Positions 18,565 to 57,721 of a stretch of DNA of 64,000 nt are shown in pieces. A model generated the notes under the pieces. The model was given only the letters and a program-made list of their open reading frames with translations. It had not been told where the DNA came from and did no database searches. A program made the position numbers and the translations under genes. Each line of letters starts with the position of its first letter. Positions within the stretch are counted from its first letter, which is position 1. The DNA is from Elusimicrobia bacterium RIFOXYA2_FULL_47_53 (GTDB lineage: Bacteria; Elusimicrobiota; Endomicrobiia; Endomicrobiales; XYA2-FULL-47-53): assembly GCA_001800315.1 (NCBI GenBank), contig MGVE01000013.1, forward strand, positions 2,238-66,237, written 5' to 3'.

Positions 18565-18837
18565 ATTTGTTTAAGTTATAAGTTTTAAGTTGTAAGTCAT
18601 AAGTGAACGGCGAACTTCTGGGTCGTCATACCTTTTCCCAACAACTGAGATCCTTCTCTCCCTTCGGGAGATCAGGATGACGGCTTTTTTGGGGTCGTCA
18701 TACCAGCGGAAGCTGGTATCCAGTGGTTTTTCTGGATCCCAGACAAAACATTTCTGGGATGACAACGCTTTACGGACGCTGAGCAAGCTCAGCAGCTACA
18801 AAACCAACTAACTGCGAGATTCTGCGAAGCAGCAGTC
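18565..18837. repeat. Mosaic hairpin-repeat array A
   Basis: Chain of short stem-loops. Examples: ataccagc-ggaa-gctggtat (18700-18719), atcccaga-caaaacatt-tctgggat (18736-18760), tctccc-ttcg-ggaga, gctgagc-aa-gctcagc. The modules recur in arrays at 19.8-20.7, 25.8-26.4, 36.7-36.9 and 38.1-38.2 kb. Confidence 0.85.
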
Positions 18838-28493: not shown

Positions 28494-28498
28494 AAATT

Positions 28499-29194: not shown

Positions 29195-29201
29195 AACTCT
29201 C

Positions 29202-29837: not shown

Positions 29838-30691
29838 GCGCCGCGTCCCTGCTGTTTAAATATATTATAAACCATCATAAACAAACCGAACGCGATTACC
29901 CAAAGGACTATACCTGCGCCGTCGTGAAGAATGCCGCCGGTAGCGGCCTCGGTTCCGTAAATATAGGCCGCGATGATAAGAAAAACTATCCGGGCCGTAT
30001 TCGCCAGAACCGCGATCGGCAGGGAAAACGCAACTACCGCCGACTTCCTTAACATACTGCCTTTCAGGAAATACGCGAATACCACGCTTAAGGTAAACAG
30101 CGATATGAGCGAGTTTATGCCGCTGCACTCATTTTCAACCGTCAACATACCGTTGGGAAGGTAAATCACGCTCCCTTCGCGCAGTATATTCAGGTTCATC
30201 AACCCCACGACCCAGACCGCGGCCTGCGAGGCCAGTAGCTTAAGGTTAAAGGTCAGCCATATAAGCATGACCTTCGGAACCGGCACCATGAAAATGAGAA
30301 AAGACAACGGAAAAAGCAGGGCTCTGGTAATCTGCCGTCCGAACAGGTACAAAGACGCGCCTATCAGCGCGAAAATCAGCGCGAAACCGGAGAAAAACTT
30401 TATCCCCAGCACAAGCCCGACAAGCACATGCCCGGCGAGCGCCGCTATCAAAAGAGCTATCCCGAAATACGATGTTTCCTGCCGCATATTTTTGAGGCGC
30501 GGCAAACTTGAATATATAATATACGCCGAGAAAAACGGTATCAAAAAACCGTGCGAGTAATAAGAATCCGGCTCAACAAACCTGGCATACATCCACTGAA
30601 AAGTGTCAAAAAATGTCGCCGCGACCGCCGCGGGAAGCAGAAAAAAGGGTATGAATCCGCCGTAACTTTTCTTAATTACCGCCTGGGACAT
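29834..30691 (-). CDS. Exosortase (EpsH/Xrt family transpeptidase)
   Basis: 285 aa, about 8 TM. Catalytic-type motifs ENECSGINSL (Cys), LANTARIVFL (Arg), ILHDGAGIV (His). Confidence 0.8.
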   Translation of the reverse strand: MSQAVIKKSYGGFIPFFLLPAAVAATFFDTFQWMYARFVEPDSYYSHGFLIPFFSAYIIYSSLPRLKNMRQETSYFGIALLIAALAGHVLVGLVLGIKFFSGFALIFALIGASLYLFGRQITRALLFPLSFLIFMVPVPKVMLIWLTFNLKLLASQAAVWVVGLMNLNILREGSVIYLPNGMLTVENECSGINSLISLFTLSVVFAYFLKGSMLRKSAVVAFSLPIAVLANTARIVFLIIAAYIYGTEAATGGILHDGAGIVLWVIAFGLFMMVYNIFKQQGRGA

Positions 30692-32109: not shown

Positions 32110-32942
32110 AACCTGCCCTCTATTTCCTTGTTTTTCATAAAGAATACAGTTACTGAAACCGTGTAAAAAATATCTGCTAATAAAATAAAAAATATTTTAG
32201 CCGCGACAAACAGGATGGATATCTCAGGAAACGATTTTTCCATCATGCCGCGCATGTTAACAAACAAAAACGGCAGAACAATCAGATTGGGTCCCAGAAC
32301 AACTAACAGAAGCTTTACGGGATAATTCTTAAACAGCGCGACCGCGCGTTTAAAAGACTGGGGGAGCTTCCTGTTTTCAACTATTACGGCGGGGATTCCG
32401 AAAGCGAACAGGGCCTGAATAAGAACCCCGAACAAAAACATAAGAAGCACGACGGCCTTTACGGAAGTGGTCACATACTCAAGCAGAAGGTATGAAGTCC
32501 TGGAAAAAGCGTAGATGAGCACAAATACGGCAACCCACAGGCCGAGCATACGGAAATATCTTTTAACAGATTTGCCGAACCCGAAAAACCAGCTTGGCTC
32601 GCCCGACTGGAACAGCTGGGCCGTCATGGAAATAGTTATGCCGGACATTATCAGGCCGAAAGTGAAATCTATGGCATTTTTTGAATAATTAAACAGCGTC
32701 GGGAACAGAATCAGGTTAAACGGATAGTGCAGGAAACGATCGCCCCAGAAAGCTTTTACTATAGGAGAAAACACCGTGGAAAGAGGATACCGCGGGGAAA
32801 GATAGACTACACACATGCCGGCGATATAAAACAAAGCGGTAAACAAAAATGGCGCCGCTATAACCGGCTTTTTTTTAAGCAACTCATATGATTCTTTCCA
32901 AACGGAGAGAACGCTAAGTTTATTGCCCGAATTGCCACTCAT
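32106..32942 (-). CDS. Polytopic membrane protein of unknown function
   Basis: 278 aa, about 6-7 hydrophobic helices. ATGA overlap with the TPR gene, so it belongs to the exosortase operon. Confidence 0.5.
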   Translation of the reverse strand: MSGNSGNKLSVLSVWKESYELLKKKPVIAAPFLFTALFYIAGMCVVYLSPRYPLSTVFSPIVKAFWGDRFLHYPFNLILFPTLFNYSKNAIDFTFGLIMSGITISMTAQLFQSGEPSWFFGFGKSVKRYFRMLGLWVAVFVLIYAFSRTSYLLLEYVTTSVKAVVLLMFLFGVLIQALFAFGIPAVIVENRKLPQSFKRAVALFKNYPVKLLLVVLGPNLIVLPFLFVNMRGMMEKSFPEISILFVAAKIFFILLADIFYTVSVTVFFMKNKEIEGRL

Positions 32943-32975
32943 AGATAACCCTTTTTAGCTGCGGCGTTTTGGTAA

Positions 32976-33005
32976 TTATACTATATTTTCATTGCGTTTT
33001 TCAAC
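32976..33005 (-). promoter_or_regulatory. Sigma70-like promoter for the membrane-protein/TPR/exosortase operon
   Basis: On the minus strand: TTGAAA (33005-33000), an 18-nt spacer, then TATAAT (32981-32976), about 35 nt upstream of the ATG at 32942. Confidence 0.4.
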
Positions 33006-33042
33006 AAAAACTAAGCCTGGGCTTTGTAAACCAACCCAGGCA
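33004..33042 (-). terminator. Possible intrinsic terminator after the sugar-transferase gene
   Basis: 7-bp stem gcctggg/cccaggc (33016-33022 / 33036-33042) with a 13-nt loop, followed on the minus strand by TTAGTTTTTG. The loop is large, so this is weak. Confidence 0.35.
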
Positions 33043-33084
33043 TTCACATATTTATGTATTTCGCGCGGCAGGGCGCCGAATGTA

Positions 33085-34527
33085 CTATCTTGCGCCCTTG
33101 GAAAGAATGACCGTGCCGATAGTCTTGAAAAGTATCTGTATATCCATCAGCAGGCCCCTTTTCCTGGCGTAAAGCAGGTCATACCTCAGTTTTTTTCTGG
33201 TTCCCTCTACGGTATCGGTGTAGCCGTTCATAACCTGGGCAAGGCCCGTTATTCCGGGTTTTACATAAAAACGCGTGTTGTAATTCTCTATATCGTTGTC
33301 AAGTTGTTTTACAAAAACCGGCCTCTCGGGCCTGGGGCCTATTATGCTCATATCGCCCTTGAGCACATTAATAAGCTGGGGCAGTTCGTCAATTCTCGTC
33401 ATTCTGAGAAATTTACCAATGTGCGTTATCCTTGAATCGTTTTTCGCGGCCCAAACCGGGCCGGTGCCTTTTTCAGCGCCCATGGTCATGGTGCGCAGTT
33501 TGTATATTGTGAAAGGTTTACCGAGAACATCGTCGCTGCGCATTTCGCCCTGAGCGGGATTGCCGCGCGGAGCCCTGGATCTTCTTCTATTTTCGCCTAC
33601 CCGTTCCTGTTTATAAAACGCCGGGCCCGTGGAGTCTAATTTAACAAGTATGGCCGCGACCGCGACTATGGGAGCCGCGAGCACTATTCCGATGGAAGCA
33701 AGAAGAATATCTAAAAACTTTCTGAACTCGCTGTACCTGCTTCTCGCGAATGATGCCAGCGATCCCGCCAGGCCGAGCATTATCAGAACCATCGTGGAAG
33801 GTTCCGGAACCGGAGTGGGATTGATATCGGCCCTCAGCGTCAGGTAATCGTTGCCGCAGCTCATTGTCCAGTGCAGTTTGATATCCCTGCTGGTATGCCT
33901 GTTAAAACCAAACGCGGAGAGCGGAACGCTTGCCTCAAGCACATAGTGGCTGTTGATAGCCTCGCTGAAAGCAAAGTCAACGGGAGCATCCACTGCGCAA
34001 CCGGAGAGTATATTGTAGGGAGTGGAAGAATACAACCCGTTCTGCCACACGCAGTTCTTCTTTAGAACCGCGCTCTCCGAGCCGAGCACCTCAATGCCGT
34101 ATTCGTAAATATTGTCGCCGTCAGTATTGATGGCTATGTCGCCGGGCCATATATATGACGGAGAGAAACCCTGCGGCGAGGCGGCGCCGTTTACCGGAAG
34201 GCCCTGCACAACGGCCATGTAGAGGTTCTCGCCGTCATTATCAAAATAAAAAGCCTCGGCATCGCACATATTGCCAAAACTGTACTGGGGGCCGACAAAC
34301 CAGGCTCCGTGGCTGTAGGCCGGATTTCTGGTGTTATCCGCGTTGTCTTCAGTAATGTAATCTATGTCCGAGCCGCCCGCGGGTGTGTCGGAATCCAGGG
34401 CGAACCTGGACCCGGCCTGCAGAAGATTTACGCCCCAATCGTCCACCAGCCCATCAATAATGTAGGAATGGGCCGCGGAAGGAAGCAATAAAGCGCAGCA
34501 TAAGATTAACTTAATGTTTAAACGCAT
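33085..34527 (-). CDS. Fusion protein: secreted N-terminal domain + complete PEP-CTERM sorting signal + polyprenyl-phosphate sugar phosphotransferase (Bac_transf/EpsB-WbaP-like) domain
   Basis: Preferred start is MRLNIKLILCCALLLPSAAHS (34527). Track residues 34-250 form an extracytoplasmic domain. Residues 252-276 read VPEPSTMVLIMLGLAGSLASFARSR (PEP motif, TM helix, basic cluster; DNA 33736-33810). Residues 281-492 read FLDILLASIGIVLAAPIVAVAAILVKLDSTGPAFYKQERVG...YKLRTM...DELPQLINVLKGDMSIIGPRPERP. One uninterrupted frame. Confidence 0.75.
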   Translation of the reverse strand: MRLNIKLILCCALLLPSAAHSYIIDGLVDDWGVNLLQAGSRFALDSDTPAGGSDIDYITEDNADNTRNPAYSHGAWFVGPQYSFGNMCDAEAFYFDNDGENLYMAVVQGLPVNGAASPQGFSPSYIWPGDIAINTDGDNIYEYGIEVLGSESAVLKKNCVWQNGLYSSTPYNILSGCAVDAPVDFAFSEAINSHYVLEASVPLSAFGFNRHTSRDIKLHWTMSCGNDYLTLRADINPTPVPEPSTMVLIMLGLAGSLASFARSRYSEFRKFLDILLASIGIVLAAPIVAVAAILVKLDSTGPAFYKQERVGENRRRSRAPRGNPAQGEMRSDDVLGKPFTIYKLRTMTMGAEKGTGPVWAAKNDSRITHIGKFLRMTRIDELPQLINVLKGDMSIIGPRPERPVFVKQLDNDIENYNTRFYVKPGITGLAQVMNGYTDTVEGTRKKLRYDLLYARKRGLLMDIQILFKTIGTVILSKGAR

Positions 34528-34580
34528 ACAATTCTCCATAAAAATTTGCTCAGGCCTGAACAAACCTTACGATTCATTTT

Positions 34581-35195
34581 TTACAACAGCAGCTTCTTCC
34601 TTGAAGCCACAAGGCCTAATAAACCTGTTCCAAGCAACATTAATGTCGCCGGTTCAGGAACAGCTGTTGCGGTAGTCACCTTAAATGTAACCCCACTATT
34701 GCGATAATGGCAATCAGGATCAACACCAAACCCAAAATCATCATTAGTGGCAATGTAATTCTGAAGGTCATCAATCAATCCGAGAGAACTGAATGAATAG
34801 ACCAAGTCAAAATTACGCGCTACTCCGCCAAGAGGGTCACTCCATGTGCCGACAAGGACACCTTGTCCGGCAAACATATCATTAGTGTCTCCGTCCCAAA
34901 CCCCATCTGTCCCGCTAAGCGTACCTAACACTGCTGAGTCAAGCAAATGAGTGTAGAGCATGTCCCCATCTTCAACAGCCCAGTCATAAATATTCTTATA
35001 AGTAAGAACCGCTTCCTCAATGTACTCAGTGGGAGCAAGGTTAAGCTTAAGACCCCATGTGTAGAAATAAGAATGATTCAAATCCCCTAAATCATACGGG
35101 GTTGGCTGATAAGTATAAATAGCCGACTGAGATACTCCTGTGAGCACGGCCATGACAGCCGAGATTAACAACACTTTTACTAACGCTTTTTTCAT
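34581..35195 (-). CDS. PEP-CTERM sorting-domain protein
   Basis: 204 aa with a signal peptide. C-terminus AVPEPATLMLLGTGLLGLVASRKKLLL. Confidence 0.85.
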   Translation of the reverse strand: MKKALVKVLLISAVMAVLTGVSQSAIYTYQPTPYDLGDLNHSYFYTWGLKLNLAPTEYIEEAVLTYKNIYDWAVEDGDMLYTHLLDSAVLGTLSGTDGVWDGDTNDMFAGQGVLVGTWSDPLGGVARNFDLVYSFSSLGLIDDLQNYIATNDDFGFGVDPDCHYRNSGVTFKVTTATAVPEPATLMLLGTGLLGLVASRKKLLL

Positions 35196-35348
35196 TGTTT
35201 TTCACCTCCTTTGTTTGTGAAAGGGAAAACAGCACCCTGTGTATGATGTGCTCAGACCTGAGACTTTTTTATTATTTACACACTGCTTTTAAAAATGAGA
35301 AATAAACAACAACAGACCGCGCAACAATCTGTCCGAGATACTCTTAGA

Positions 35349-36020
35349 TTATTTCTTTATTTTTAGTGCCGCGATGCCGAACAATCCGGTTCCAAGAAGG
35401 AACAGGGTTGCCGGTTCAGGGATAGGCCTGGGAAAACCGCCGGCGCTGCTGGTCTTGGGCGAGAAATCGTCTTTCCAGTCAATCATTCCATTTTTGTTTG
35501 TATCGGCAAGAGCGAAGAAATGGTCTCCCTCGGTCATGATGCCGGTGTATGAAATAGGAGCCGTGAACATATAATAGGTTTTATTGTCCAAGTCGTTTGT
35601 GGTCTGCCAGAGGGACTGGGTTTTAGGAAGCAGAGTATTGTAATAAATGCAAGAGGGATTGTTGTATCCATCTATCTGATGATCCACATTCTGGGTAAGC
35701 GCAAGCTGCTGGTTGTTAAAGTAGAGAGGAAAATTGTCGCCGCCCGTGTTTGAAATAAAGTATATGTCGTTCAGCCATGGCACATAAGAAGTGAATACGG
35801 TAAGGTTTGAGCCGGAAGGCCCGATAACAAAACCATGGTAATCGGGGTTCGCGGCGGGAACTATGGTATCGGCGAAATACTGTATATAAGTCCAGTTGAC
35901 GGCATCCGCGTCAGCATACGCGTAAGTACCCGCGGCTACACCCAGCGAAGGAGTAGCGTTTACCGGAACCGTCAAAAATAATGCCGCTGCCGCAACCAAA
36001 AACAAAAAGATTCTCTTCAT
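35349..36020 (-). CDS. PEP-CTERM sorting-domain protein
   Basis: Preferred start is MKRIFLFLVAAAALFL (36020), with AAGGGGAAG upstream. C-terminus PIPEPATLFLLGTGLFGIAALKIKK. Confidence 0.85.
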   Translation of the reverse strand: MKRIFLFLVAAAALFLTVPVNATPSLGVAAGTYAYADADAVNWTYIQYFADTIVPAANPDYHGFVIGPSGSNLTVFTSYVPWLNDIYFISNTGGDNFPLYFNNQQLALTQNVDHQIDGYNNPSCIYYNTLLPKTQSLWQTTNDLDNKTYYMFTAPISYTGIMTEGDHFFALADTNKNGMIDWKDDFSPKTSSAGGFPRPIPEPATLFLLGTGLFGIAALKIKK

Positions 36021-36293
36021 TAAACTTCCCCTTTTAGACACATATTCCACAAGATGACAACCCATGATTTACAGCGGACACAGCAAAAACAAAAAACGAA
36101 CAGACTCCCCCGAAAGGAAAGGGCCGCTTAAAGCTGCGGCCAAATGTTACTTAATTAATCCAAATTTGTCAACGCCCTGCCAGACTGCGTACAATTTGAT
36201 AAATAATATTACAAAACAAGAAACCAGGTTGTCAACAAACCGGGTTTCTTGTTTATGCCACTGATAAGAATTTTTTATCGTCTGAGGTGTTTT

Positions 36294-36620: not shown

Positions 36621-36740
36621 TGTGTATTATGGTTATGGCAATTCCCATGGTAAAACAGTAAAACTAATTGTGAAATAGTTGTGAAATGCTCAACAACTTA
36701 CTGCATTTAGGGACATCACAAACCCGAAAAAACGAAGCCT

Positions 36741-36890
36741 GCCGTCATCCGAATGTTTCTGCATGGAATCCATCAAGGCCTATCATCCCAGAACCGTTCA
36801 GTCTGGGATCCAGAAAAATCTCTGGATACCAGCTTCCGCTGGTATGACGACACAGAAGCGCCGTTCACTTAAAGCTTACAACTTGAGTCA
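36741..36890. repeat. Hairpin-repeat array D (inverted orientation relative to array B)
   Basis: 36741-36815 aligns with the reverse complement of 20601-20675. It also carries the ataccagc/gctggtat hairpin and the cacttaaagcttacaactt module. Confidence 0.75.
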
Positions 36891-37837: not shown

Positions 37838-38094
37838 TTATTTCCTTCCAAAAGTCGTAAAATACCGGAACGCTGAAGGGGTGGAGCGGAGAGGAGTTAA
37901 TAGCGCGCGCCGCGCTTAGAAAGGAGACATCGTCAATATGGAAAAGTTTGGCTATAAAAGACAGGTAAGCGGCAAGAGAATACAATACTATTGAGAGGAG
38001 AGGATGCTCTGTCAGCCATTTGTTTGACGAAACATATATTGTTGACTTTTTCATTGGCAATCCAAAATTTGATTCAATTGAAAAACCCTTAAAA

Positions 38095-38215
38095 ATGCCC
38101 TGTCGTTGCGATCTCCCAAAGGGAAAGAAGCAATCGCGATGTTAAGACGAGATTGCTTCCCGCCACTGAACCTTCGGCGGACTGTCGCGTCGTTGCACTC
38201 CTCGCAAAGACGGGC
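38095..38215. repeat. Hairpin-repeat fragment E
   Basis: gtcgttgcgatctcccaaagggaaagaagcaatc is the inverted form of the gattgcttctctcccttcgggagatcgcaatgac module. cgccactgaaccttcggcgg matches 26311-26335. Confidence 0.6.
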
Positions 38216-47192: not shown

Positions 47193-47280
47193 AATTACGC
47201 TCCCTTTATTAAATTCCGTCCGGTGTCAGGATTGACTTAATGACACGCGGACGCATCCTGAAAATATTACTGAACATCAT

Positions 47281-47563
47281 TCAAAGCTATTGAATTTCAA
47301 ATATTGTTGTTTTGTTGAGAATATTTTTATCCTGCTCCATTTTAAAACTAAACTGAAATGCGCCGCACTATGTAGGCTTTATTTTGAAGGTTAAATTTTT
47401 CAGGAAACTGTTTTAAGGCAACAACTTTTCTATTTTTAACCAGCAGAAGGAATACGCCATCGTTTTCCTGGTTATATTTAGCAATTTTTTCTGCCAAACC
47501 CTGATCTATCTTGCTTGCCTGCTTGCATCAGGAATTGTTCACTTAACGAATAACCTTCCGTCT
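47281..47563 (-). pseudogene. Truncated, frameshifted copy of the 3' part of the 52725..53216 gene
   Basis: About 283 bp aligning with 52719-52997 at roughly 85-90% identity by eye, including the stop and the last codons (KTTIFEIQ*). A 2-nt deletion relative to the intact copy (ctgaaatgcgccgcactatg vs ctgattttgactttgcactaca) breaks the frame. Homology ends exactly at the stop codon of the flavodoxin-like gene. Confidence 0.7.
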
Positions 47564-51416: not shown

Positions 51417-51657
51417 AACCCTGCGGGTTGTAGTCAAGGCTTGTCACTTGAGTTTTGGTTTCGGGGGTTATTCGCGTAGCATTTCATGCGAAACAAAAAG
51501 AAACTTTGCCGCATGGCATAGGGGGGAGCATTTGAATGCTCCCCCACTGGGATGGTAGTAGAGGGGGGTGCCGGCAACGCTACGAAAGGCAAAGTTTCTT
51601 AAAGTTGCAGCTGAAAGATTAATCTCGCAGTAGAGAATAATCCCCGAAACCAAAACT
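51417..51657. repeat. Repeat X, copy 1 (19-nt core + long foldback hairpin)
   Basis: Core aaccctgcgggttgtagtc lies at 51417-51435. The outer stem agttttggtttcgggggttattc (51451-51473) pairs with gagaataatccccgaaaccaaaact (ending 51657). The inner stem is gaaactttgcc/ggcaaagtttc. Homologous to 56426-56622. Confidence 0.8.
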
Positions 51658-51768
51658 CCCATCATGGGACGATGTTCGAACTTATTTCAAGACAATCATT
51701 TGCAGACAACACATTGAATTTGCAATTAATAAGAAGTATTCCTAATCAGCAATTATCTGAGTTGCACA

Positions 51769-51999
51769 TCAAGCGGCATGATGCATGACATAATAATCAA
51801 TTATTTTCCTTATCATTGTCTGATAATGCCCATGTGATTTTTTGGCATATTTCTTGAAAAAATCAACGCTGTTTTGGCTAAGTGTAATCGTTACCTTAAC
51901 ATTCTTTTCCTTGAACGCAAAATGCTCCGGAGCCGGCAAAAAGTCCTTCACTTCTTTAAAGTTCATTGGCTCATTTGTGTAGCTTATTTTTTTCTTCAT
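51769..51999 (-). CDS. brnA: BrnA-type antitoxin (RHH/CopG-like)
   Basis: Preferred start is MKKKISYTNEP (51999), with GGGAGG 8 nt upstream. Pattern ...LPAPEHFAFKEKNVKVTITLSQNSVDFFKKYAKK... Lies directly downstream of brnT and overlaps it. Confidence 0.7.
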   Translation of the reverse strand: MKKKISYTNEPMNFKEVKDFLPAPEHFAFKEKNVKVTITLSQNSVDFFKKYAKKSHGHYQTMIRKIIDYYVMHHAA

Positions 52000-52261
52000 A
52001 ATATGACCTCCCTTTTCTCCAATAACCGGCTCCAATTATCCTTATTATATTGCCCCTATAAGTGAAACGGACCGTTATGATGCCTTTGTCTACCTTCCCA
52101 ATGCAATAGTATCTCTTTTCATCTTTACTATGCTCTAAGTCCTCAAGAATAACGCGATGAGGATCGGCAAACGCAAATTGCGCGTCAAAGAAAGATATAC
52201 CATGCTTGCTAAGATTTACTTCGTCTTTCTTTGGATCCCAATCGAATACCGTCTTATTCAT
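51971..52261 (-). CDS. brnT: BrnT-family (DUF497) toxin
   Basis: 96 aa. FDWDPKKDEVNLSKHGISFFDAQFAFADPHRVILEDLEHSKDEKRYYCIG...IRIIGAGYW matches the BrnT pattern. Confidence 0.8.
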   Translation of the reverse strand: MNKTVFDWDPKKDEVNLSKHGISFFDAQFAFADPHRVILEDLEHSKDEKRYYCIGKVDKGIITVRFTYRGNIIRIIGAGYWRKGRSYYEEKNKLHK

Positions 52262-52331
52262 ATGGGTATATTACCATACCTTTATACATATGTCAAGAGT
52301 ATTCCAAATGAAATATCCCTATAATATCATC

Positions 52332-52530
52332 AAAACCCTGGTAGCAGGATTCCCTCTCGCCCATCCTCTTGGGGGCTTCGGGGCGGGGCGCTCACCGACT
52401 CCCCTTCGGGCGAGGGCTCGTGCCGACACTCTCCCGCGCCTGTCTTATCCTGACCTATTCGTCAGGATAGGCGCCCCACTGCTACCACGAGCTCGTTATT
52501 CCTCGCTCAGCAACCCTGCGGGTTGTAGTC
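52332..52530. repeat. Repeat Y, copy 1
   Basis: About 200 bp, highly similar to 56235-56444. It starts with a degenerate copy of the tRNA-Asn 3' end (aaaaccctggtagcagga) and ends with the 19-nt core. Internal hairpin tatcctgac-ctattc-gtcaggata. Confidence 0.8.
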
Positions 52531-52724
52531 TCGCACCCTAACAACAAAATAGTCCGAAAGAACCCCTTTAGGGGGTTTCTTCGGACTATACTCCCATTAT
52601 AAAACGATGTTCGAACCTATTTTAAGAATACTATACGATAAAACACCTTAATAATACAATGTATCTGCAATGTTTGAATATATATTTCACACAACCGGAA
52701 AATAATAATGAAGATCTTTCAAAG

Positions 52725-53216
52725 CTATTGAATTTCAAATATAGTTGTTTTATTGAGATTATTTTTATCCTGTTCCACCTTAAAACTAAACTGATTTTGA
52801 CTTTGCACTACATAGGCTTTATTATGAAGGTTAAATTTTCCAGGGAACTGTTTTAAGGCAACAACTTTTCTATTTTTAACCAACAGAAGGAATACACCAT
52901 CGTTTTCCTGGTTATATTTAGCAATTGATTTTGCCAAACCCTGATCTACCTTGCCTGTTTGCATCAGAAATTGTTCACTTAATGAATAACCTTCTGTCAA
53001 AATCAAATATTGAATATTAAATCTATTTGGTATCGTAATTGTAGTGCCCGTTCTTACTGCGGCAAGATTTTGCACAATTTCGTTAGCATAGTCTCTATAT
53101 TTTGTATTTGAATTATGCTCTATTTTCCTTAGCATGAATACAATAAGGATACATGCTATTGAAAATATAATGAGCCAGAAAATACTTTGGACGATATGTT
53201 TGATAATAATTTTCAT
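52725..53216 (-). CDS. Membrane-anchored hypothetical protein (163 aa)
   Basis: N-terminal TM (IVQSIFWLIIFSIACILIVFML). AT-rich. Its 3' part is duplicated as a pseudogene at 47281-47563. Confidence 0.55.
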   Translation of the reverse strand: MKIIIKHIVQSIFWLIIFSIACILIVFMLRKIEHNSNTKYRDYANEIVQNLAAVRTGTTITIPNRFNIQYLILTEGYSLSEQFLMQTGKVDQGLAKSIAKYNQENDGVFLLLVKNRKVVALKQFPGKFNLHNKAYVVQSQNQFSFKVEQDKNNLNKTTIFEIQ

Positions 53217-53447
53217 AAAAATCCGTTTCTCTTTGATAAAATATTATTTATTTAAGCTTTTTAAGTTTATCCAACTTACCCATTATTTCATCTGAAATTC
53301 TATCCTCATCAGTTATGTCATTATTTTTGAGATCTTGCCATTGAATATATCTGACACATGAATCAAAAAAAAGGCTTACCGTAATTACAATGGCAAGCGA
53401 AATTCTACATTGAATATTTTGAATCCTTAACTACTAAATGCTTTAAC

Positions 53448-53900
53448 CTAAGGTATTTTAAATGTCACGATATCGCTTATTCTCTTATATCCATCACCAA
53501 AATAACAACTCATATATGCTTTATACTTACCAGGGCTTGGAAACCTAAACTGAGTACTAGTTGCAGCATTCCTAGTGAGTCTATGAGCGTCAGTTTTTGC
53601 ATCAACAATAACCCAGCTAATACTATGATTTATTATATCCTCATCTAAGACATCTCTATTCAGGGTTCCTTCATCATCTACCCAAAGACGAATAAATGGC
53701 GCTGGATCATGCAACTTTTCAAGTATTTTCCTTTCTATGCCAACTTGCTTAACTTTTTGCCATTTAACTTTTATCTCTATTTCCGTCACTCTATTTTCAA
53801 GCTTCTGTATTTGAGTATCAAATGGTTTATTACCCTCATAGCATTTGACAGATAATTGGCTCAATATTATAACAGCAATAACCAAGAATGTCTTCTTCAT
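53448..53900 (-). CDS. Secreted coiled-coil protein with C-terminal beta-sandwich-like domain
   Basis: 150 aa. Signal peptide, heptad region IQKLENRVTEIEIKVKWQKV, and a C-terminus ...GKYKAYMSCYFGDGYKRISDIVTFKIP related to the C-terminus of the next gene's product. Confidence 0.55.
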   Translation of the reverse strand: MKKTFLVIAVIILSQLSVKCYEGNKPFDTQIQKLENRVTEIEIKVKWQKVKQVGIERKILEKLHDPAPFIRLWVDDEGTLNRDVLDEDIINHSISWVIVDAKTDAHRLTRNAATSTQFRFPSPGKYKAYMSCYFGDGYKRISDIVTFKIP

Positions 53901-53907
53901 AGAGAAC

Positions 53908-54621
53908 CTATTTAATCTTATAACTCACAACATTACTAATTACTTTATAACCACCATCGATAAACTGTTCCAAATATACAGTGTAAACACCTTTTTTATC
54001 ATTTTTGTACTTAAATGATTTCGCTACTCCACCGGATTCGTAAACGGTATTCCCATTGTAGATAATAACCAACATGGCATTACTTCCTGTATCATTTTTG
54101 ATATCACCCATATGAATAGTGTTGTCTTTATCAACCCATATTATGACTGAAGTCTGGGTTGGCTTGTAATTTTCCTTCAGCCTCTTCCTTCGATCATCCT
54201 TTTCTCTATTTGGTTTTTCGATTTCGGCTTGGTGAATTTCAAGACCATATAATTGTTTTTCTAATTCTGACACCTTGTCTTCCAATACCCTGATTCTCGA
54301 TGCGGATTGAGATTGCTCCTGCTTATCTTCAAGAGTGACAATATTTACAATGATATCCTTTTCCCGACCCGACAACCTACTATCACTAAAGTTCTTGTCA
54401 GGTTTATACCAAACCTGGCTAGAAAAATACTGATTTAAATCACTATTATCAAACATCTTTCCATGCCTTGCATAAATTTCGTTTTTCAAAAGACGAAGTT
54501 CTTCGATACTTTTTTCTCCAATGTTGTCATATTTCGCAAGCCAATCCTCAGCATATAGTCCTTGCAAGACGAATAAACTTGCAGCGAAAAGATACCACAG
54601 CACAATGTTTTTTTTATTCAT
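53908..54621 (-). CDS. Secreted YARHG-domain protein with coiled coil and C-terminal beta-sandwich-like domain
   Basis: 237 aa. Signal peptide. ELRLLKNEIYARHGKMFDNSDLNQYFSSQVWYKP (YARHG motif). RIRVLEDKVSELEKQLYGLE coil. C-terminus ...GVYTVYLEQFIDGGYKVISNVVSYKIK. Confidence 0.6.
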   Translation of the reverse strand: MNKKNIVLWYLFAASLFVLQGLYAEDWLAKYDNIGEKSIEELRLLKNEIYARHGKMFDNSDLNQYFSSQVWYKPDKNFSDSRLSGREKDIIVNIVTLEDKQEQSQSASRIRVLEDKVSELEKQLYGLEIHQAEIEKPNREKDDRRKRLKENYKPTQTSVIIWVDKDNTIHMGDIKNDTGSNAMLVIIYNGNTVYESGGVAKSFKYKNDKKGVYTVYLEQFIDGGYKVISNVVSYKIK

Positions 54622-54642
54622 ACATTCCTACCCATAAATACT

Positions 54643-56055
54643 CTAATCTGCAAAACATAAACCTTCAAAATAGTCCCCGGGATATTCCCTTAAATAGTTT
54701 ATACTAAACCAGCCTTTTTCACCATTAATATTTTCAACAAGGCACCATTCTTTATCATCTGTCATAGTAATTGTAGCCTTGTCTCCAGGCATTAGCACCA
54801 AACTAATTCGAGAGTCATATGGCGTTTTTTGAAGCTTAAGCTCTTTTAATATAGCGACCTTTGTATTCATCTCAATAACACCTTGCTGAATTGGTTCAAC
54901 CTTATGATCTTGATTTAGCCTATTTCTTTGTTTATAGAACCATGTATGCAGTATATTTCCTCTTTCATGGGAATCAAAAGTACCCGAACCATCAATAACT
55001 ACTCCGTATCTGAGTAAACCACCAACTGTGCCCATGGGAACAAATTCACTATCATTGTAATAATAGAAACTTGTGCTGTAATCATCACTGGGCCCCTCAT
55101 CATCCATTGCTACTTCTATATATTTATCACTTTTATCTATATCAACAAAGCCCCAAGTGGAACCAGTCCCAACCACCGGGAGATAGGCATTATTAACAAC
55201 AAGGATGTCACCCTTAGCCTCGATAATATAAACATTTTCTTCTTTTCCATCACCATTTAAATCTACACTCTTCATTTTATATAAGCCATCAAATACTTCT
55301 GCAGTGCTCATTCCTATACCCCGAATAATATGAAACTTATCGATTGCAAACCATCCCTTCAAGCCATCCGTGTTTTCTATCATACACCATTCAATCTTAT
55401 CCGTTTTAATAATTTTTGCTTTATCTCCTGTCTTAAAAGTACAAGCTATGCGAGCATCTATAGGCGAAACTTGAAGCTGAATCGGTTTTTTCAACACCAC
55501 ATCAATGTCAACATCATATTGGTTACTATTTGTCGTAATTTCTTCAAGTAAGTGTTCTTTTGTAAGCCTATACATCGGAGTAAACATCTCGCCAGATAAT
55601 AAATTCGCCCTAATAGCTCCCTTTACTATCCCTGTACCATCAGCCACAATCTTATACGATTTTTCAATAGCCCCCATATCGACTATTATATTTCTATCGA
55701 ATGACAACAATTTTACTGTATTATCATAGCTTTTACCATAACAATATGTCTCTATTTCCACAAATTTGTCATTTTTATCAATATCTATTATTTTGTAGAA
55801 ACTGTAAGGGTTCCATACGATTTTTGCAGCTTTTTTGTCATTTATATATAGAAATGTAACATTCCGGTTTTCCTCCTGCTCATAACTGACTCTTATTTTT
55901 TCATTCCTACCATCCCCATCCAAATCAATTTCTTTCTTGAATTTATCAGTAAATTGAGTGGGATCAAATTGATTGACTTCAGCGCCAGCGTTCACATACA
56001 TCAATATAGACAATAATATTACAAAAACGACATTCTTTCCTATTCCAAATCTCAT
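54643..56055 (-). CDS. Secreted protein with an internal tandem duplication: DxDxDG Ca-binding-like loops plus SH3b-like domains
   Basis: 470 aa with a signal peptide. Two roughly 215-aa repeats, each with DLDGDGRNE / DLNGDGKEE, IDIDKNDKFVEIE / VDIDKSDKYIEVA and GDKAKIIKTDKIEWCMIENTDGLKGWF / GDKATITMTDDKEWCLVENINGEKGWF. Confidence 0.6.
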   Translation of the reverse strand: MRFGIGKNVVFVILLSILMYVNAGAEVNQFDPTQFTDKFKKEIDLDGDGRNEKIRVSYEQEENRNVTFLYINDKKAAKIVWNPYSFYKIIDIDKNDKFVEIETYCYGKSYDNTVKLLSFDRNIIVDMGAIEKSYKIVADGTGIVKGAIRANLLSGEMFTPMYRLTKEHLLEEITTNSNQYDVDIDVVLKKPIQLQVSPIDARIACTFKTGDKAKIIKTDKIEWCMIENTDGLKGWFAIDKFHIIRGIGMSTAEVFDGLYKMKSVDLNGDGKEENVYIIEAKGDILVVNNAYLPVVGTGSTWGFVDIDKSDKYIEVAMDDEGPSDDYSTSFYYYNDSEFVPMGTVGGLLRYGVVIDGSGTFDSHERGNILHTWFYKQRNRLNQDHKVEPIQQGVIEMNTKVAILKELKLQKTPYDSRISLVLMPGDKATITMTDDKEWCLVENINGEKGWFSINYLREYPGDYFEGLCFAD

Positions 56056-56234
56056 TGCAAACCCTTTTTTTGCTATATCTTATTACCAGCTCGTTCTGTT
56101 CGAGAATTGTATCAGTAAAATAGCACGAAATCAAGTTCAATAAATATTACTATATCCACATATAAATTTCCCAATAAATACAAAAAAAAGAAAACCACAC
56201 ATATTCAATCGTTTTATCGACGGACTTAAAAGTC

Positions 56235-56444
56235 AAAACTCTGGTGGTAGGAGTTTCTCCCCTCACCCATCCTCTTGGGGGCTTCGGGGCGGGGCGCTCA
56301 CCGACTCCCCTTCGGTCCAGGGCTCGTGCCGACACTCTCCCGCGCCTGTCTTATCCTGACCTATTCGTCAGGATAGGCGCCCCACTGCTATCACGAGCTC
56401 GTTATTCCTCGCTCAGCAGCCCTGCAACCCTGCGGGTTGTAGTC
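56235..56444. repeat. Repeat Y, copy 2
   Basis: Starts with aaaactctggtggtagga (an exact copy of the tRNA-Asn 3' end, 56239-56252). Ends with the 19-nt core (56426-56444), which runs directly into repeat X copy 2. Confidence 0.8.
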
Positions 56445-56622
56445 AAATCTTGTCACTTGAGTTTTGGTTTCGGGGGTTATTCGCGTAACGAGAGATTAAG
56501 ATTTCAAGCGAAACAAAAAGAAACTTTGCCGCGGCGTAGCAACGCTACGAAAGGCAAAGTTTCTTAAAGTTGCAGCTGAAAGATTAATCTCGCAGTAGAG
56601 AATAATCCCCGAAACCAAAACT
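56426..56622. repeat. Repeat X, copy 2
   Basis: Same outer stems as copy 1 (56460-56482 / 56598-56622). The apical region is shorter, and the terminal hairpin is cgtagc-aa-gctacg. Confidence 0.8.
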
Positions 56623-56960
56623 CTGGTGGTAGGATGCCCGCCGTTGGCGGGGACTCGGTCACAAGTAAATTTGCTGACGCAAATTTCTCGCGGGCACCCC
56701 TTCCATCACATATCCCAGCGGGACACCGCTCCGCGGTTTCCCCTACCCACTTCTCGCGGTTTGAGCCTTTCGCTTCGCTCAAACTCAAACATCGCTCCGC
56801 CTTTCGAATCCTACCGCCTTTCAATTGCATTATTTTAGTTAGCAATTGAAAGCCCGGGTTCTCACGAACTCGAACCCGCGCATTATCTCGCCTCCAGTTC
56901 CCAAATGCCATTCAGGCATTTAACTCTCGGCATGCGCCCAAGCAGTTGGCTTGCTCCACC

Positions 56961-57011
56961 AGAGAAATAAATATCCCAAGTTCACTCCGATTAGGAGTTA
57001 ACTTGGGATAT
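56961..57011 (-). terminator. Intrinsic terminator downstream of tRNA-Asn
   Basis: 12-bp stem atatcccaagtt/aacttgggatat (56971-56982 / 57000-57011) with an inner actcc/ggagt stem, followed on the minus strand by TTATTTCT. Confidence 0.55.
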
Positions 57012-57012
57012 A

Positions 57013-57084
57013 CTCTGGTGGTAGGATTCGAACCTACAACCCTCCCGTTAACAGCGGGATGCTCCACCGTTGAGCTACACCAGA
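57013..57084 (-). tRNA. tRNA-Asn (anticodon GUU)
   Basis: Hand-folded cloverleaf on the minus strand. Acceptor TCTGGTG/CACCAGA, D arm GCTC-AACGGTG-GAGC, anticodon arm TCCCG-CTGTTAA-CGGGA, variable loop GGGTT, T arm GTAGG-TTCGAAT-CCTAC, discriminator G. CCA is not encoded. Confidence 0.95.
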
Positions 57085-57241
57085 ATGTTTGCAACGATAT
57101 TTATTTTAACCGCTCAACGGTGGAGTAAACTCCACCTGCCGTTGAGCCGGGCGCTCACTTCTCGCGCCCGCCGCTGTCTCGCGCTCGTTATCCCTCGCGC
57201 TGCGGCTACCAGAATGTTTGCAACGATATTTATTTTAACCG
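57074..57241. repeat. About 37-39-bp direct repeat flanking a 92-bp hairpin insert just upstream of tRNA-Asn
   Basis: gctacaccagaatgtttgcaacgatatttattttaaccg (57074-57112, includes the tRNA 5' end) is repeated as gctaccagaatgtttgcaacgatatttattttaaccg (57205-57241). The intervening 92 bp contains the hairpin ctcaacgg-tggagtaaactccacctg-ccgttgag. Confidence 0.7.
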
Positions 57242-57249
57242 GCACGGAA

Positions 57250-57516
57250 TTACCTGAAAATCAGAGGATAATTCTCTAAATTTGAAAGTGACTTGATACT
57301 CAAATCAATATCTAATTTAGGCCAGTACAAATGCTGTGAATGAACAACCTTAACTTCAGCTATATCGCTTACCCTTGCATCTTTAAACCACGGGAAATCC
57401 TCGTATCTCAAAAAATACTCATGGCCGGCGCATAAAAGCCACAACCCCCGCGGAGTAATATCCAGGACTTCAGCGCCTGAAATGTTTTTTCCAGCTACTC
57501 CTGATTTCACTTTCAT
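57250..57516 (-). CDS. DUF2442-family small protein
   Basis: 88 aa. ...VLDITPRGLWLLCAGHEYFLRYEDFPWFKDARVSDIAEVKVV...LYWPKLDIDLS fits the DUF2442 pattern. The exact start is uncertain (47-nt overlap with the upstream gene). Confidence 0.6.
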   Translation of the reverse strand: MKVKSGVAGKNISGAEVLDITPRGLWLLCAGHEYFLRYEDFPWFKDARVSDIAEVKVVHSQHLYWPKLDIDLSIKSLSNLENYPLIFR

Positions 57517-57721
57517 GCTCCTTGACTATTTCCTGAATTTTCAAAAGCTCCCGCGCAGACAGCCCGTAATTCTCGGCCAGGGAAACGATCGGATCAATCC
57601 AAAATTTCGCCTCGCCTTTTGAGGACTGCACATGAACATGCAGCCTTTTCTCTTCACGCGAAAAGAAAAAGAAACGATATTCACCTTTTCGGAACACGGT
57701 TGGGCTCATAAAAGTTTTCAA
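57470..57721 (-). CDS. DUF4160-family small protein
   Basis: 83 aa. YRFFFFSREEKRLHVHVQSSKGEAKFWIDPIVSLAENYGLSARELLKIQEIV fits the DUF4160 pattern. Confidence 0.65.
   Translation of the reverse strand: MKTFMSPTVFRKGEYRFFFFSREEKRLHVHVQSSKGEAKFWIDPIVSLAENYGLSARELLKIQEIVKEHESEIRSSWKKHFRR

What the first reader, a model, noticed from the sequence alone, without database searches (positions are those of the whole stretch)
52332..56444. AT-rich four-gene islet bracketed by direct copies of repeat Y, each starting with a copy of the tRNA-Asn 3' end
Y1 (52332-52530) and Y2 (56235-56444) are about 200-bp direct repeats. Y2 begins with aaaactctggtggtagga, identical to the 3' end of the tRNA-Asn gene 0.8 kb away. 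Y1 begins with a degenerate version (aaaaccctggtagcagga).

The DNA between them (52.6-56.2 kb) is much more AT-rich than the flanks, roughly 25-37% GC on the lines I counted against about 50% elsewhere. It encodes four consecutive exported proteins with no housekeeping role. This is the classic footprint of a tRNA-targeted genomic islet, but without an integrase.
Basis: partly seen in the sequence, partly recalled or inferred. Interest (0 to 1): 0.6.

Follow-up and report, generated by a model that had tools for sequence, protein, structure and literature searches.

The report
Islet between tRNA-derived repeat modules
A block of four foreign-looking genes sits beside a tRNA gene between two copies of a structured repeat that appears to be a rearranged partial copy of that tRNA, and because similar modules flank tRNA genes elsewhere in this phylum where no gene block is present, the repeat cannot be only the scar left by the block's insertion.

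Summary
Y1 and Y2 are direct repeats, 94% identical over 181 nt. Each carries a copy of the tRNA-Asn 3' end: Y2 matches 15 nt exactly and Y1 is degenerate. The 3.6 kb between them is the strongest compositional outlier in the window (GC 0.29-0.38; GC3 0.27-0.35 against 0.54-0.61).

Y is not a simple att scar. Read on the tRNA strand, Y appears to be a rearranged 3' portion of tRNA-Asn interrupted by a roughly 60-nt two-hairpin element I call E, which has tandem G-A motifs and strong covariation.

- E also lies in a 129-bp unit upstream of the tRNA, and weakly in the element just downstream.
- E recurs inside partial tRNA-Ala and tRNA-Asn copies in other Elusimicrobiota that have no islet.
- Repeat units capped by a tRNA 3' end, joined within the T loop, also follow tRNA-Ser, tRNA-Ala and tRNA-Asn genes in other genomes.

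The islet and the neighbouring BrnT/BrnA pair each start right after a module's tRNA-like end and finish with a shared 38-nt motif.

Best reading: cargo carried in a tandem series of integrase-less mini-elements at tRNA-Asn, fixed in the population. No integrase, empty site or excision evidence was found. E matches no Rfam family.

The parts
57012..57085 (-). tRNA-Asn (GTT), the intact gene at the head of the array
   Evidence: ARAGORN. Rfam tRNA model, 69.9 bits.
57079..57241 (-). 129-bp tandem unit upstream of the tRNA. A 34-nt repeat (putative promoter region plus tRNA nt 1-7) occurs at 57079-57112 and 57208-57241. Between the two copies lies the 95-nt 'B' segment, which holds element E (57146-57206) and a D-arm-like hairpin.
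   Evidence: Repeat D8. E model hit, 74.7 bits. Assemblies carry 2 or 3 copies of the 34-nt repeat, i.e. one or two full 129-bp units.
56971..57011 (-). Hairpin followed by a T-rich tract directly after the tRNA; a terminator by inspection only
   Evidence: Inverted repeat I13, 18-nt arms, 94% complementary. The terminator scan did not list it.
56635..56970 (-). Element A. It opens with a tRNA-Asn 5'-like start (CTCTGGTGGAGCA). It carries a weak E variant at 56853-56937 and further GAGA..GTGA motifs. It ends in the tRNA 3' copy.
   Evidence: The minimum-energy fold pairs its two ends, z = -5.5. E model hit 21.8 bits, E = 0.005. Local alignments to the tRNA.
56616..56634 (-). Exact copy of the tRNA-Asn 3' end (att_a); 16 nt are identical to the tRNA
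56426..56623 (.). X2, a roughly 200-nt near-perfect hairpin (MITE-like). Its last 19 nt in minus-strand (tRNA) order, window 56426-56444, are shared with Y2.
   Evidence: Repeats D2, D4 and D9 and inverted repeat I1. Fold z = -10.8.
56235..56444 (-). Y2. On the tRNA strand it reads: anticodon-stem/variable/T-stem-like start, then E (56289-56420, with an ~85-nt insertion in hairpin 2), then GGGTGAGGGGAGAAAC, then the tRNA 3' end (56238-56252).
54643..56055 (-). i470, an exported protein with SH3 domains
   Evidence: Nearest homologue 39% identical.
53908..54621 (-). i237, an exported protein with a YARHG domain
53448..53900 (-). i150, a paralogue of the C-terminal 130 aa of i237
   Evidence: BLASTP E = 6e-11.
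52725..53216 (-). i163, a membrane-anchored ORFan
   Evidence: Only itself found among 5.8 billion proteins.
52549..52627 (-). Z2 (52590-52627) plus the hairpin at 52549-52589; the distal boundary of the islet
   Evidence: Repeat D7 and inverted repeat I17. Z occurs exactly twice, 0 expected. A 10-nt match to the tRNA T arm was reached by 2 of 500 shuffles.
52332..52530 (-). Y1, the second copy of the module. Its tRNA-like end (52331-52349) is degenerate.
51769..52261 (-). BrnT/BrnA toxin-antitoxin pair, a second cargo block. It starts right after Y1's tRNA-like end.
   Evidence: Pfam BrnT 9.9e-23, BrnA 3.8e-6. Promoter-like site at 52296-52268.
51417..51692 (.). Z1 (51655-51692) plus X1 (51417-51658); the distal boundary of the BrnTA block
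   Evidence: Repeats D2, D4, D7 and inverted repeat I5..
47251..47562 (-). Truncated ~90% identical copy of the 3' part of i163, abutting the flavodoxin gene's stop codon

Best explanation
**What it is.** In this groundwater Elusimicrobiota species, the tRNA-Asn gene heads a co-oriented series of short GC-rich structured modules. These appear to be rearranged partial copies of the tRNA itself, interrupted by a conserved two-hairpin element, E. Y1 and Y2 are two copies of one such module: an E-bearing arm ending in a tRNA 3' fragment joined within the T loop.

**Where the cargo sits.** The AT-rich four-gene block is horizontally acquired or fast-evolving cargo. It lies in the slot immediately after Y2's tRNA-like end (...CCAGAGTTTTGA|). 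The BrnT/BrnA pair lies in the equivalent slot after Y1. Both cargo blocks end in the same 38-nt Z motif.

**How it most likely arose (inferred).** Elements were added serially at the tRNA 3' end, with crossover in the T loop. Each addition displaced the previous tRNA-end copy further downstream. Y is then the att-adjacent arm shared by two related members of the series: one without cargo (X2-Y2, ~370 bp) and one with cargo (islet plus Y1, 3.9 kb). The recombinase acts in trans or has been lost, as for a CIME (cis-mobilizable element: att-flanked, no integrase of its own). Unequal crossing-over between modules then amplifies and homogenises them.

**Shown:** the anatomy, the composition, the conservation and covariation of E, and the recurrence of such modules at other tRNA genes.
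**Inferred:** the recombination mechanism and the order of events.
**Current state:** the array is fixed in all sampled populations, and nothing indicates that it is still mobile.
For: - **tRNA-end copies.** Four co-oriented copies against 0 expected. Identity to the tRNA starts inside the T loop: 16 nt for the copy ending A and 15 nt for Y2. The same T-loop junction appears in modules after tRNA-Ser, tRNA-Ala and tRNA-Asn in L001, L062, L065 and L095.
- **E in the window.** Y, B and weakly A share element E.
- **E is structured.** 87% of cells are paired. 11 of 16 pairs show changes on both sides. 0 of 500 shuffles reach the observed covariation score, and slid controls collapse.
- **E elsewhere.** It lies inside partial tRNA-Ala copies flanking intact tRNA-Ala in L026, L031 and L050. 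It lies in a partial tRNA-Asn copy in L065. None of these has an islet.
- **Unmodified loci exist.** porB-tRNA-Asn loci in L020 and L073 have no modules. The array is therefore an addition in this lineage.
- **The islet looks foreign.** Composition. i470 has no homologue above 39% identity and i163 is an ORFan.
- **Shared cargo boundaries.** Both cargo blocks start after ..AG(A/G)GTTTTGA and end in Z, which occurs exactly twice. Each has its own promoter-like site.
- **Ongoing amplification.** Modules differ in tandem copy number between assemblies.
Against: - **No recombinase.** None was found in the Pfam-screened window ORFs or in the ~5 kb of flanking DNA beyond the window end that related contigs provide.
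- **No evidence of mobility.** No empty site, circular junction or presence/absence polymorphism of the islet was found. Every population contig spanning the region has the same layout.
- **Y1's end.** Its tRNA-like end is the most diverged part of the repeat. This fits poorly with an att core.
- **E is not tied to tRNA fragments.** It also occurs free-standing (L050 6073-6146; L106, L110, L111). At tRNA-Ser it lies in antisense orientation. It could therefore be an independent dispersed repeat that merely accumulates near tRNA genes.
- **Weak tRNA matches.** Matches to the tRNA other than the 3' ends are short and individually weak.
- **Recombinase not required.** Tandem arrays could arise purely by unequal crossing-over at T-arm-like microhomology.
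- **Local paralogy.** i163 has a decayed paralogue 5.4 kb away, and i150 and i237 are paralogues. Part of the gene content therefore arose by local duplication.
Confidence: 0.45

Rival explanations
1. A single integrase-mediated insertion of the islet into the tRNA-Asn 3' end created Y1 and Y2 as attL and attR, and the integrase gene was later lost.
For: Direct repeats bracket a compositionally foreign block next to a tRNA, and each carries a tRNA 3' fragment. This matches the Islander definition of tRNA-gene islands (PMC4383910).
Against: - Y's core element E also lies upstream of the tRNA and in other genomes without islets.
- Two more tRNA-end copies and elements A and X2 lie between the tRNA and Y2.
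- The tRNA-like end is the least conserved part of Y.
- No integrase was found.
Confidence: 0.15
2. The modules (B, A, Y and E) are functional structured RNAs co-transcribed with the tRNA: tRNA mimics or K-turn-bearing leaders and trailers that act in processing, termination or insulation. Y1 and Y2 are tandem duplicates kept by selection or gene conversion. The islet simply landed in the spacer between them by illegitimate or homologous recombination.
For: - Covariation in E with conserved unpaired GA/GA and GAGA..GUGA motifs.
- A variable terminal stem is tolerated in hairpin 2.
- B, Y and A are on the tRNA strand.
- Partial tRNA copies track the species-specific sequence of the adjacent tRNA.
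- A and X fold far better than shuffled sequence.
Against: - E is antisense at tRNA-Ser.
- The G-U against A-C count does not pick a strand.
- Folding of Y's 3' end does not support a terminator.
- No Rfam family matches.
- No expression data are available.
Confidence: 0.2
3. No horizontal transfer is involved. The islet is a native, lineage-specific family of fast-evolving envelope proteins, with low GC for functional reasons. The Y duplication is an ordinary segmental duplication among the genome's many intergenic repeats.
For: - The genome is rich in modular hairpin repeats.
- i150/i237 paralogy and an i163 pseudo-copy nearby.
- A second low-GC patch at 47-49.5 kb.
- Distant i470 homologues exist in other Elusimicrobiota-like contigs.
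- The islet is fixed in the population.
Against: - GC3 is 0.27-0.35 against 0.54-0.61 in neighbours on the same strand.
- The islet has no orthologues in relatives.
- The boundaries coincide exactly with tRNA-end copies and the shared Z motif.
Confidence: 0.12
4. An integron-like system. X, Y and E are folded single-strand recombination sites (attC analogues), and the islet and BrnTA are cassettes in an array anchored at the tRNA.
For: - The sites conserve structure more than sequence and have a variable terminal structure.
- A toxin-antitoxin cassette is present.
- No integrase is nearby, as in CALIN arrays (clusters of attC sites lacking an integron integrase).
Against: - No R/L box or GTTRRRY core on inspection.
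- The islet has four genes and its own promoter-like site.
- No intI.
- Only two cargo blocks.
Confidence: 0.08

Closest known systems
Genomic islands integrated in tRNA genes (Islander definition, PMC4383910; integrase sublocation classes of Williams 2002, cited from memory)
   Same: An intact tRNA heads the region. Displaced 3' fragments lie downstream in direct orientation. Identity to the tRNA starts in the T loop. The cargo is compositionally foreign, a toxin-antitoxin pair sits beside it, and elements are stacked in tandem.
   Different: No integrase is present. Three of the 'islands' are only 240-390 bp and carry no genes. The repeat is 200 bp of conserved structured sequence rather than a short att core. 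The same modules also occur on the 5' side of the tRNA.
CIMEs, cis-mobilizable elements (att-flanked, integrase-less derivatives of integrative elements; PMC5704250, PMC6323972)
   Same: Cargo is bracketed by att-like repeats, has no recombination or transfer genes of its own, and sits in a tandem accretion at a tRNA 3' end.
   Different: No cognate integrative element or integrase has been identified, and no mobilisation has been shown. The flanking repeats are structured elements conserved across the phylum.
REP/BIME and MITE-type intergenic structured repeats
   Same: The modules are short, GC-rich, hairpin-forming, multi-copy, non-coding and modular. X has ~24-nt terminal inverted repeats and a variable tip. 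E occurs as free-standing intergenic copies.
   Different: No target-site duplications and no associated transposase were seen. Many copies are fused to fragments of the adjacent tRNA, at loop positions of the cloverleaf.
Kink-turn / K-loop RNA motifs (own knowledge)
   Same: Hairpin 2 of E reads stem-GA...(3 nt)GA-stem, and extra helices are tolerated on the far side. This is the k-turn sequence pattern. Hairpin 1 has tandem GA/GA next to a covarying pair.
   Different: This rests on sequence pattern alone. No structure or binding protein has been tested, and the strand that folds is not established.
Integron cassette arrays lacking an integrase (CALINs)
   Same: Co-oriented cargo units are separated by structured sites, a toxin-antitoxin unit is present, and no integrase lies nearby.
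   Different: No attC consensus is present. One cargo unit has several genes and its own promoter-like site. The array is anchored on a tRNA gene.

Membership tests
tRNA-gene genomic island (Islander-type) | Intact target tRNA gene at one end | tested here: met
   tRNA-Asn at 57012-57085.
tRNA-gene genomic island (Islander-type) | Displaced tRNA fragment in direct orientation at the other end | tested here: met
   Copies at 56616, 56234 and 52331 (the last degenerate), 0 expected. Several copies are present, and they are embedded in larger modules.
tRNA-gene genomic island (Islander-type) | Integrase gene within the island | tested here: not met
   No recombinase domain in the islet, its neighbours or the other Pfam-screened window ORFs. 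None appears in the precomputed Pfam lists for related contigs, which reach ~5 kb beyond the window end.
tRNA-gene genomic island (Islander-type) | Foreign composition or gene content | tested here: met
tRNA-gene genomic island (Islander-type) | Absent (empty site) in some close relatives | tested here: inconclusive
   All population contigs that span the region carry it. The nearest other genomes are only ~77% identical in PorB and SNF and share nothing downstream of the tRNA.
CIME (cis-mobilizable element) | Flanked by att sites and lacking integrase and transfer genes | tested here: met
   Whether the repeats are functional att sites is not shown.
CIME (cis-mobilizable element) | Mobilised in trans by a cognate integrative element that uses the same att | not testable with these tools
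   The rest of the genome is not available here. The viral scans found nothing.
Integron cassette array / CALIN | attC sites with R''-L''...L'-R' boxes and a GTTRRRY core | tested here: not met
   Inspection of X, Y and E: the junctions read GAGTTTTGA/G, and no R box is present.
MITE | Terminal inverted repeats plus target-site duplication, in multiple copies | tested here: inconclusive
   X has 24-nt terminal inverted repeats that are 96% complementary, and two copies. No target-site duplication is present, and no copies were found in other loci.
Any Rfam RNA family | Covariance-model match at or near the gathering score | tested here: not met
   Only tRNA matched in the window. In related loci only tRNA and one group I intron matched.
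Kink-turn motif | C stem, 3-nt bulge, tandem G-A/A-G pairs, NC stem | tested here: inconclusive
   The sequence pattern fits in the extended forms of hairpin 2 in L026, L031 and L050_E3. There is no structural test.
Anti-phage defence island / prophage remnant | Proteins matching PADLOC or PHROGs families | tested here: not met
   No hits.

The most novel reading that the evidence does not exclude
E, Y and X belong to an undescribed class of tRNA-derived structured modules carrying tandem G-A (k-turn-like) motifs. They copy or capture the ends of the adjacent tRNA gene and stack in tandem at tRNA loci across Elusimicrobiota. They serve as landing pads, recognised either as folded DNA or as RNA, for integrase-in-trans gene cassettes. 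That would be a tRNA-anchored counterpart of integron cassette arrays.
Probability: 0.12. Interest if true: 0.8.

Novelty: new variant of a known kind. Interest (0 to 1): 0.55.

Why it matters
tRNA-end duplications are routinely taken as proof of integrase-mediated island insertion. In this lineage, copies of tRNA ends belong to conserved structured modules that decorate tRNA genes even where no island exists. Automated island callers would therefore over-call or mis-delimit islands here.

Element E is a phylum-wide non-coding motif with good covariation and no Rfam family. Its fusion to cloverleaf-loop positions of partial tRNA copies has no ready explanation. It could be a new mobile mini-element, a new recombination site or a new tRNA-linked RNA. 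If the modules do capture cargo, they would be a compact, integrase-independent route for gene gain in small-genome, uncultivated bacteria.

Tried and rejected
**Searches that led nowhere**
- **Metagenome scan.** I used a degenerate Y/B hairpin pattern. It returned 11 stretches, of which 3 (termite-gut contigs) were real E copies. It did not return the Rifle contigs known to carry Y, so that collection cannot answer whether Y is dispersed in this genome.
- **Viral scans.** Four scans, for the att motif, the Y/B pattern and two E patterns, gave 0 hits.
- **Rfam.** Gathering and permissive thresholds found nothing but tRNA. Related loci added only a group I intron.
- **PADLOC and PHROGs.** Nothing for the islet proteins or their neighbours.
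- **Literature.** Two searches for Elusimicrobia tRNA repeats and for tRNA fragments with k-turns found nothing relevant.

**Empty-site test.** I tried PorB loci in GTDB, SNF homologues and their contigs. Relatives are too distant (~77% identity) and share nothing downstream of the tRNA.

**Ideas tested and not supported**
- **Terminator.** Y's 3' end as an intrinsic terminator: fold z-scores of -0.1 to -1.7 give no support.
- **Strand assignment.** The G-U against A-C count was 3 against 4, which is uninformative.

**Ideas considered and dropped**
- Diversity-generating retroelement repeats, a retron ncRNA, a CRISPR-transposon homing guide, and a TnpB/IscB guide RNA (structured scaffold plus tRNA-derived guide). 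No reverse transcriptase, Cas, TnpB, IscB or transposase appears in the Pfam-screened ORFs or the precomputed Pfam lists.
- tmRNA and split-tRNA readings. ARAGORN finds none, the modules are not tRNA-Ala-specific, and the two E copies flanking a tRNA are homologous to each other rather than complementary.
- A primer-binding-site reading. The complement of the tRNA end lacks the TGG that would pair with CCA.

Full report
tRNA-Asn(GTT) lies at 57012-57085 on the minus strand. Y1 (52332-52530) and Y2 (56235-56444) are direct repeats, 94% identical over 181 ungapped nt. The gapped alignment shows an interior with only 3 differences in ~155 nt, one 8-nt indel, and a much more diverged first ~28 nt. 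With the shared CAAAAC prefix, the motif occurs four times on one strand (52331, 56234, 56616, 57008) against 0.00 expected. The interval between the Y copies has GC of 0.285-0.378, against 0.46-0.56 outside. It has the largest tetranucleotide distance in the window (0.033-0.040; mean 0.021, sd 0.0046). Its GC3 is 0.27-0.35 against 0.54-0.61 for core genes. It holds four co-oriented ORFs with hydrophobic N-termini. Pfam finds SH3 domains in i470 and YARHG in i237.

**2. Anatomy on the tRNA strand (minus), in transcription order.**
- porB, then a DUF4160/DUF2442 pair.
- A 129-bp unit made of a 34-nt repeat (putative promoter region plus tRNA nt 1-7) and a 95-nt GC-rich segment 'B'.
- tRNA-Asn, then a hairpin.
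- Element A (336 nt), ending in an exact tRNA 3' copy.
- X2, a ~200-nt hairpin.
- Y2, ending in the second exact tRNA 3' copy.
- The four islet genes, then Z2 and a hairpin.
- Y1, ending in a degenerate tRNA 3' copy.
- BrnT/BrnA, then Z1, then X1, then the SNF transporter.

X1 and X2 are 97-100% identical except for a ~50-nt difference at the hairpin tip, and X folds with z = -10.8. A 19-mer forms the 3' end of X and the 5' end of Y on the tRNA strand. It occurs three times (repeat D6).

**3. Y contains a conserved structured element, E.** Y and B share a region whose stems differ while its loops are conserved (repeat D3). Using that as a degenerate pattern and then a regular expression, I found the same ~60-nt element in other Elusimicrobiota:
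- three copies in L050;
- one copy each in L026, L031 and L065;
- three termite-gut metagenome contigs.

On the 12-sequence alignment, three helices are 87% paired. 11 of 16 pairs show changes on both sides. 0 of 500 shuffles reach the observed covariation score, and sliding the partner columns collapses the signal. For six of the twelve sequences I had trimmed variable inserts by hand. Helix 2 is a 4-bp stem, then tandem GA/GA, then one covarying pair, then a GRAUAA loop. Helix 3 (GGGCGC/GCGCCC) closes a GAGA..GUGA loop. That loop accepts an extra stem in L026, L031 and L050_E3, and an ~85-nt insertion in Y. The pattern fits a k-turn or K-loop. That is an inference from sequence alone.

A covariance model (R1) recovers B at 74.7 bits and Y2 and Y1 at 44 and 41 bits. 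It gives a weak hit inside A (21.8 bits, E = 0.005) and another weak hit in L042. No Rfam family matches.

**4. The modules look like rearranged pieces of the adjacent tRNA.**
- In L050, L026 and L031 the intact tRNA-Ala(CGC) is preceded by its own promoter region plus tRNA nt 1-20, then E in the D-loop position, then about nt 22-35.
- In L050 and L031 it is followed by an anticodon-stem hairpin with the loop removed, then E in the variable-loop position, then the T arm, acceptor 3' strand and duplicated trailer.
- The pseudo-halves track each species' own tRNA sequence: CTTCG in L050 and CATCG in L026.
- L065 has the putative promoter region plus 21 nt of tRNA-Asn plus E, upstream of its tRNA-Asn.
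- In the window, B reads tRNA nt 1-7, then E, then a D-arm-like hairpin. A opens with CTCTGGTGGAGCA and closes with CCACCAGAG, and its minimum-energy fold pairs the two ends (z = -5.5). Y opens with CCCGC-AGGGTTGCAGG, which resembles the anticodon stem, variable loop and T stem 5' strand.

Apart from the 3' ends, these matches are short and individually weak.

Independent of E, copies of tRNA 3' ends also sit downstream of tRNAs in other genomes. L062 has four ~76-nt units. L095 has two 123-nt units that include CCA. L065 has one after tRNA-Ser. In every case the identity starts inside the T loop (..GAAT|CC..) and follows a GGGTGAGGRGRAA-like motif.

In this same species, just beyond the window end:
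- tRNA-Ala(CGC) has a 5' partial duplicate with a different hairpin-repeat family in the D-loop position.
- The tRNA-Ser(GGA) trailer is tandemly duplicated in three scaffolded assemblies, and the junction carries a T-loop-to-acceptor copy plus E in antisense orientation.

By contrast, L020 and L073 have plain porB-tRNA-Asn loci. Copies of tRNA ends are therefore a general property of these modules, not a specific footprint of the islet.

**5. The islet itself.**
- i470 has only itself at 100% identity and then 39% or less. Those homologues are often YARHG/SH3 proteins of Bacillota and of Elusimicrobiota-like contigs, in unrelated contexts.
- i163 is an ORFan. A ~90% identical truncated copy lies at 47251-47562.
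- i150 is homologous to the C-terminal 130 aa of i237.
- There are no PADLOC or PHROGs hits.
- No integrase, transposase or reverse transcriptase was seen among the Pfam-screened window ORFs or in the precomputed Pfam lists for related contigs, which reach ~5 kb beyond the window end.
- Every population contig that spans the region has the same layout. These come from Rifle, other groundwater projects and two NCBI MAGs. Only the number of 34-nt repeat copies upstream of the tRNA differs (2 against 3). The extra copies appear only in scaffolded assemblies containing Ns, so repeat collapse cannot be excluded.
- The organism is an Elusimicrobia bacterium according to NCBI's name for i163. Its nearest PorB and SNF relatives are ~77% identical, and nothing downstream of the tRNA is shared with them. 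The empty-site test is therefore impossible with present data.

**6. Cargo boundaries.** The islet begins right after ...CCAGAGTTTTGA, which ends Y2. BrnTA begins right after ...CCAGGGTTTTGA, which ends Y1. Both blocks end in the 38-nt Z motif, which is 84% identical between its two copies and occurs exactly twice against 0 expected. Z1 runs directly into X1 as GGGAGT-TTTGG, which mirrors tRNA-end-TTTGG at X2. Z2 is followed by GAGTATAG and a hairpin, which mirrors the GAGTATAT and hairpin after the real tRNA. Z2 shares TAGGTTCGAA with the T arm, a match reached by 2 of 500 shuffles. Each cargo block has a promoter-like site just inside its proximal boundary.

**7. Interpretation.** The simplest account is serial accretion at the tRNA-Asn 3' end with crossover in the T loop. 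This covers the co-oriented tRNA-end copies, the T-loop junctions, the shared arm (Y) next to two of them, the shared Z ends of both cargo blocks, the foreign composition and the tandem copy-number variation.

On this account Y is the att-adjacent arm of a family of mini-elements, one of which carries the islet. The recombinase acts in trans or has been lost, as for a CIME. Later unequal crossing-over or gene conversion homogenised the interior of Y. I give this 0.45.

The main weaknesses are four:
- there is no recombinase and no evidence of mobility;
- the att-like end of Y1 is its most diverged part;
- E also occurs free-standing and, at tRNA-Ser, in antisense orientation;
- microhomology-driven duplication alone could build such arrays.

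The rivals and their weights are:
- the modules are functional tRNA-linked RNAs and the islet landed between them incidentally (0.20);
- native fast-evolving genes plus an ordinary duplication (0.12);
- an integron-like folded-site cassette system (0.08).

**8. Comparison with known systems.** It works most like a tandem array of tRNA-integrated elements (PMC4383910) whose members lack integrases, i.e. CIMEs (PMC5704250, PMC6323972). It cannot be filed as an Islander-type island because the integrase criterion was tested and not met. It cannot be filed as a CIME because no cognate element is known. It is not an integron array: there is no attC consensus and one cargo unit has several genes. 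X resembles a MITE but has no target-site duplication.

E is not in Rfam. I found no literature on it.

**9. Verdict.** The finding is real and worth a second look. The reason is less the islet than what brackets it. The islet is a small, fixed, probably immobile cargo block of orphan envelope proteins. The brackets are a phylum-wide, covarying, tRNA-fused structured element family whose origin and function remain unexplained.

Noticed in passing
window 57079-57241: A 129-bp tandem unit lies upstream of tRNA-Asn. It consists of a 34-nt repeat (putative promoter region plus tRNA nt 1-7) and a 95-nt segment with element E. Assemblies carry 2 or 3 copies of the 34-nt repeat. Several contigs break here, and one scaffold has N gaps.
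   Followed up: partly
L001 2104-2560; also L002 and L007 (same species, just beyond the window end): The 230-nt trailer of tRNA-Ser(GGA) is tandemly duplicated. The junction carries a T-loop-to-acceptor copy of the tRNA plus E in antisense orientation (62.7 bits). It is absent from the N-free MEGAHIT contigs L003 and L009. This is either a real polymorphism or a collapsed repeat.
   Followed up: partly
L003 4077-4310 (same species): tRNA-Ala(CGC) is preceded by a duplicate of its putative promoter region plus its first 12 nt. About 100 nt of CCGCCACTGAA..GGCGG hairpin repeats sit at the D-loop position. The same repeat family occurs in the window at 26290-26353 and 38158-38194.
   Followed up: partly
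L095 11018-11267; L065 11153-11475: A group I intron (RF00028, 79.9 bits) lies directly after porB in L095. L065 reads as a tRNA-Asn(GTT) split in the anticodon loop by ~250 nt, but that insert did not reach Rfam's gathering score.
   Followed up: partly
L062 11305-11430 and 13959-14235; L095 2443-2690; L065 1931-2125: Tandem structured units, each ending in a copy of the adjacent tRNA's 3' end, lie downstream of tRNA-Asn, tRNA-Ala and tRNA-Ser in other genomes. All are joined inside the T loop. They carry GAGA..GTGA loops and a GGGTGAGGRGRAATCC-like motif.
   Followed up: partly
window 47251-47562: A truncated copy, ~90% identical, of the 3' two-thirds of islet gene i163 abuts the stop codon of a low-GC flavodoxin-like gene. 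The 47-49.5 kb region is a second compositional outlier.
   Followed up: partly
window 53448-53900 and 53908-54621: i150 is homologous to the C-terminal 130 aa of i237 (E = 6e-11). The islet therefore contains an internal gene duplication.
   Followed up: yes
window 18570-18820, 19850-20720, 25900-26360, 36740-36850, 38090-38200: Several families of modular GC-rich hairpin repeats, many ending in ATGAC, fill intergenic regions. Similar GGGAATGAC hairpins occur in L050 at 6220-6330.
   Followed up: no
window 51417-51658 and 56426-56623: X is a 200-240-nt near-perfect hairpin with 24-nt terminal inverted repeats. It has two copies that differ by a ~50-nt insertion at the tip. No copies were found in other fetched loci.
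   Followed up: partly
window 57250-57721: A DUF4160/DUF2442 gene pair, toxin-antitoxin-like in arrangement, lies between porB and tRNA-Asn. In relatives (L020, L041, L063, L072, L073) the tRNA follows porB more directly.
   Followed up: no
window 26370-36065: An exopolysaccharide locus with an exosortase (EpsH), three proteins carrying a PEP-CTERM motif (one of them the sugar transferase), a chain-length-determinant kinase, a polysaccharide export protein and a sugar transferase. Two asparagine-synthase paralogues lie at 7437-9302 and 22251-24236.
   Followed up: no
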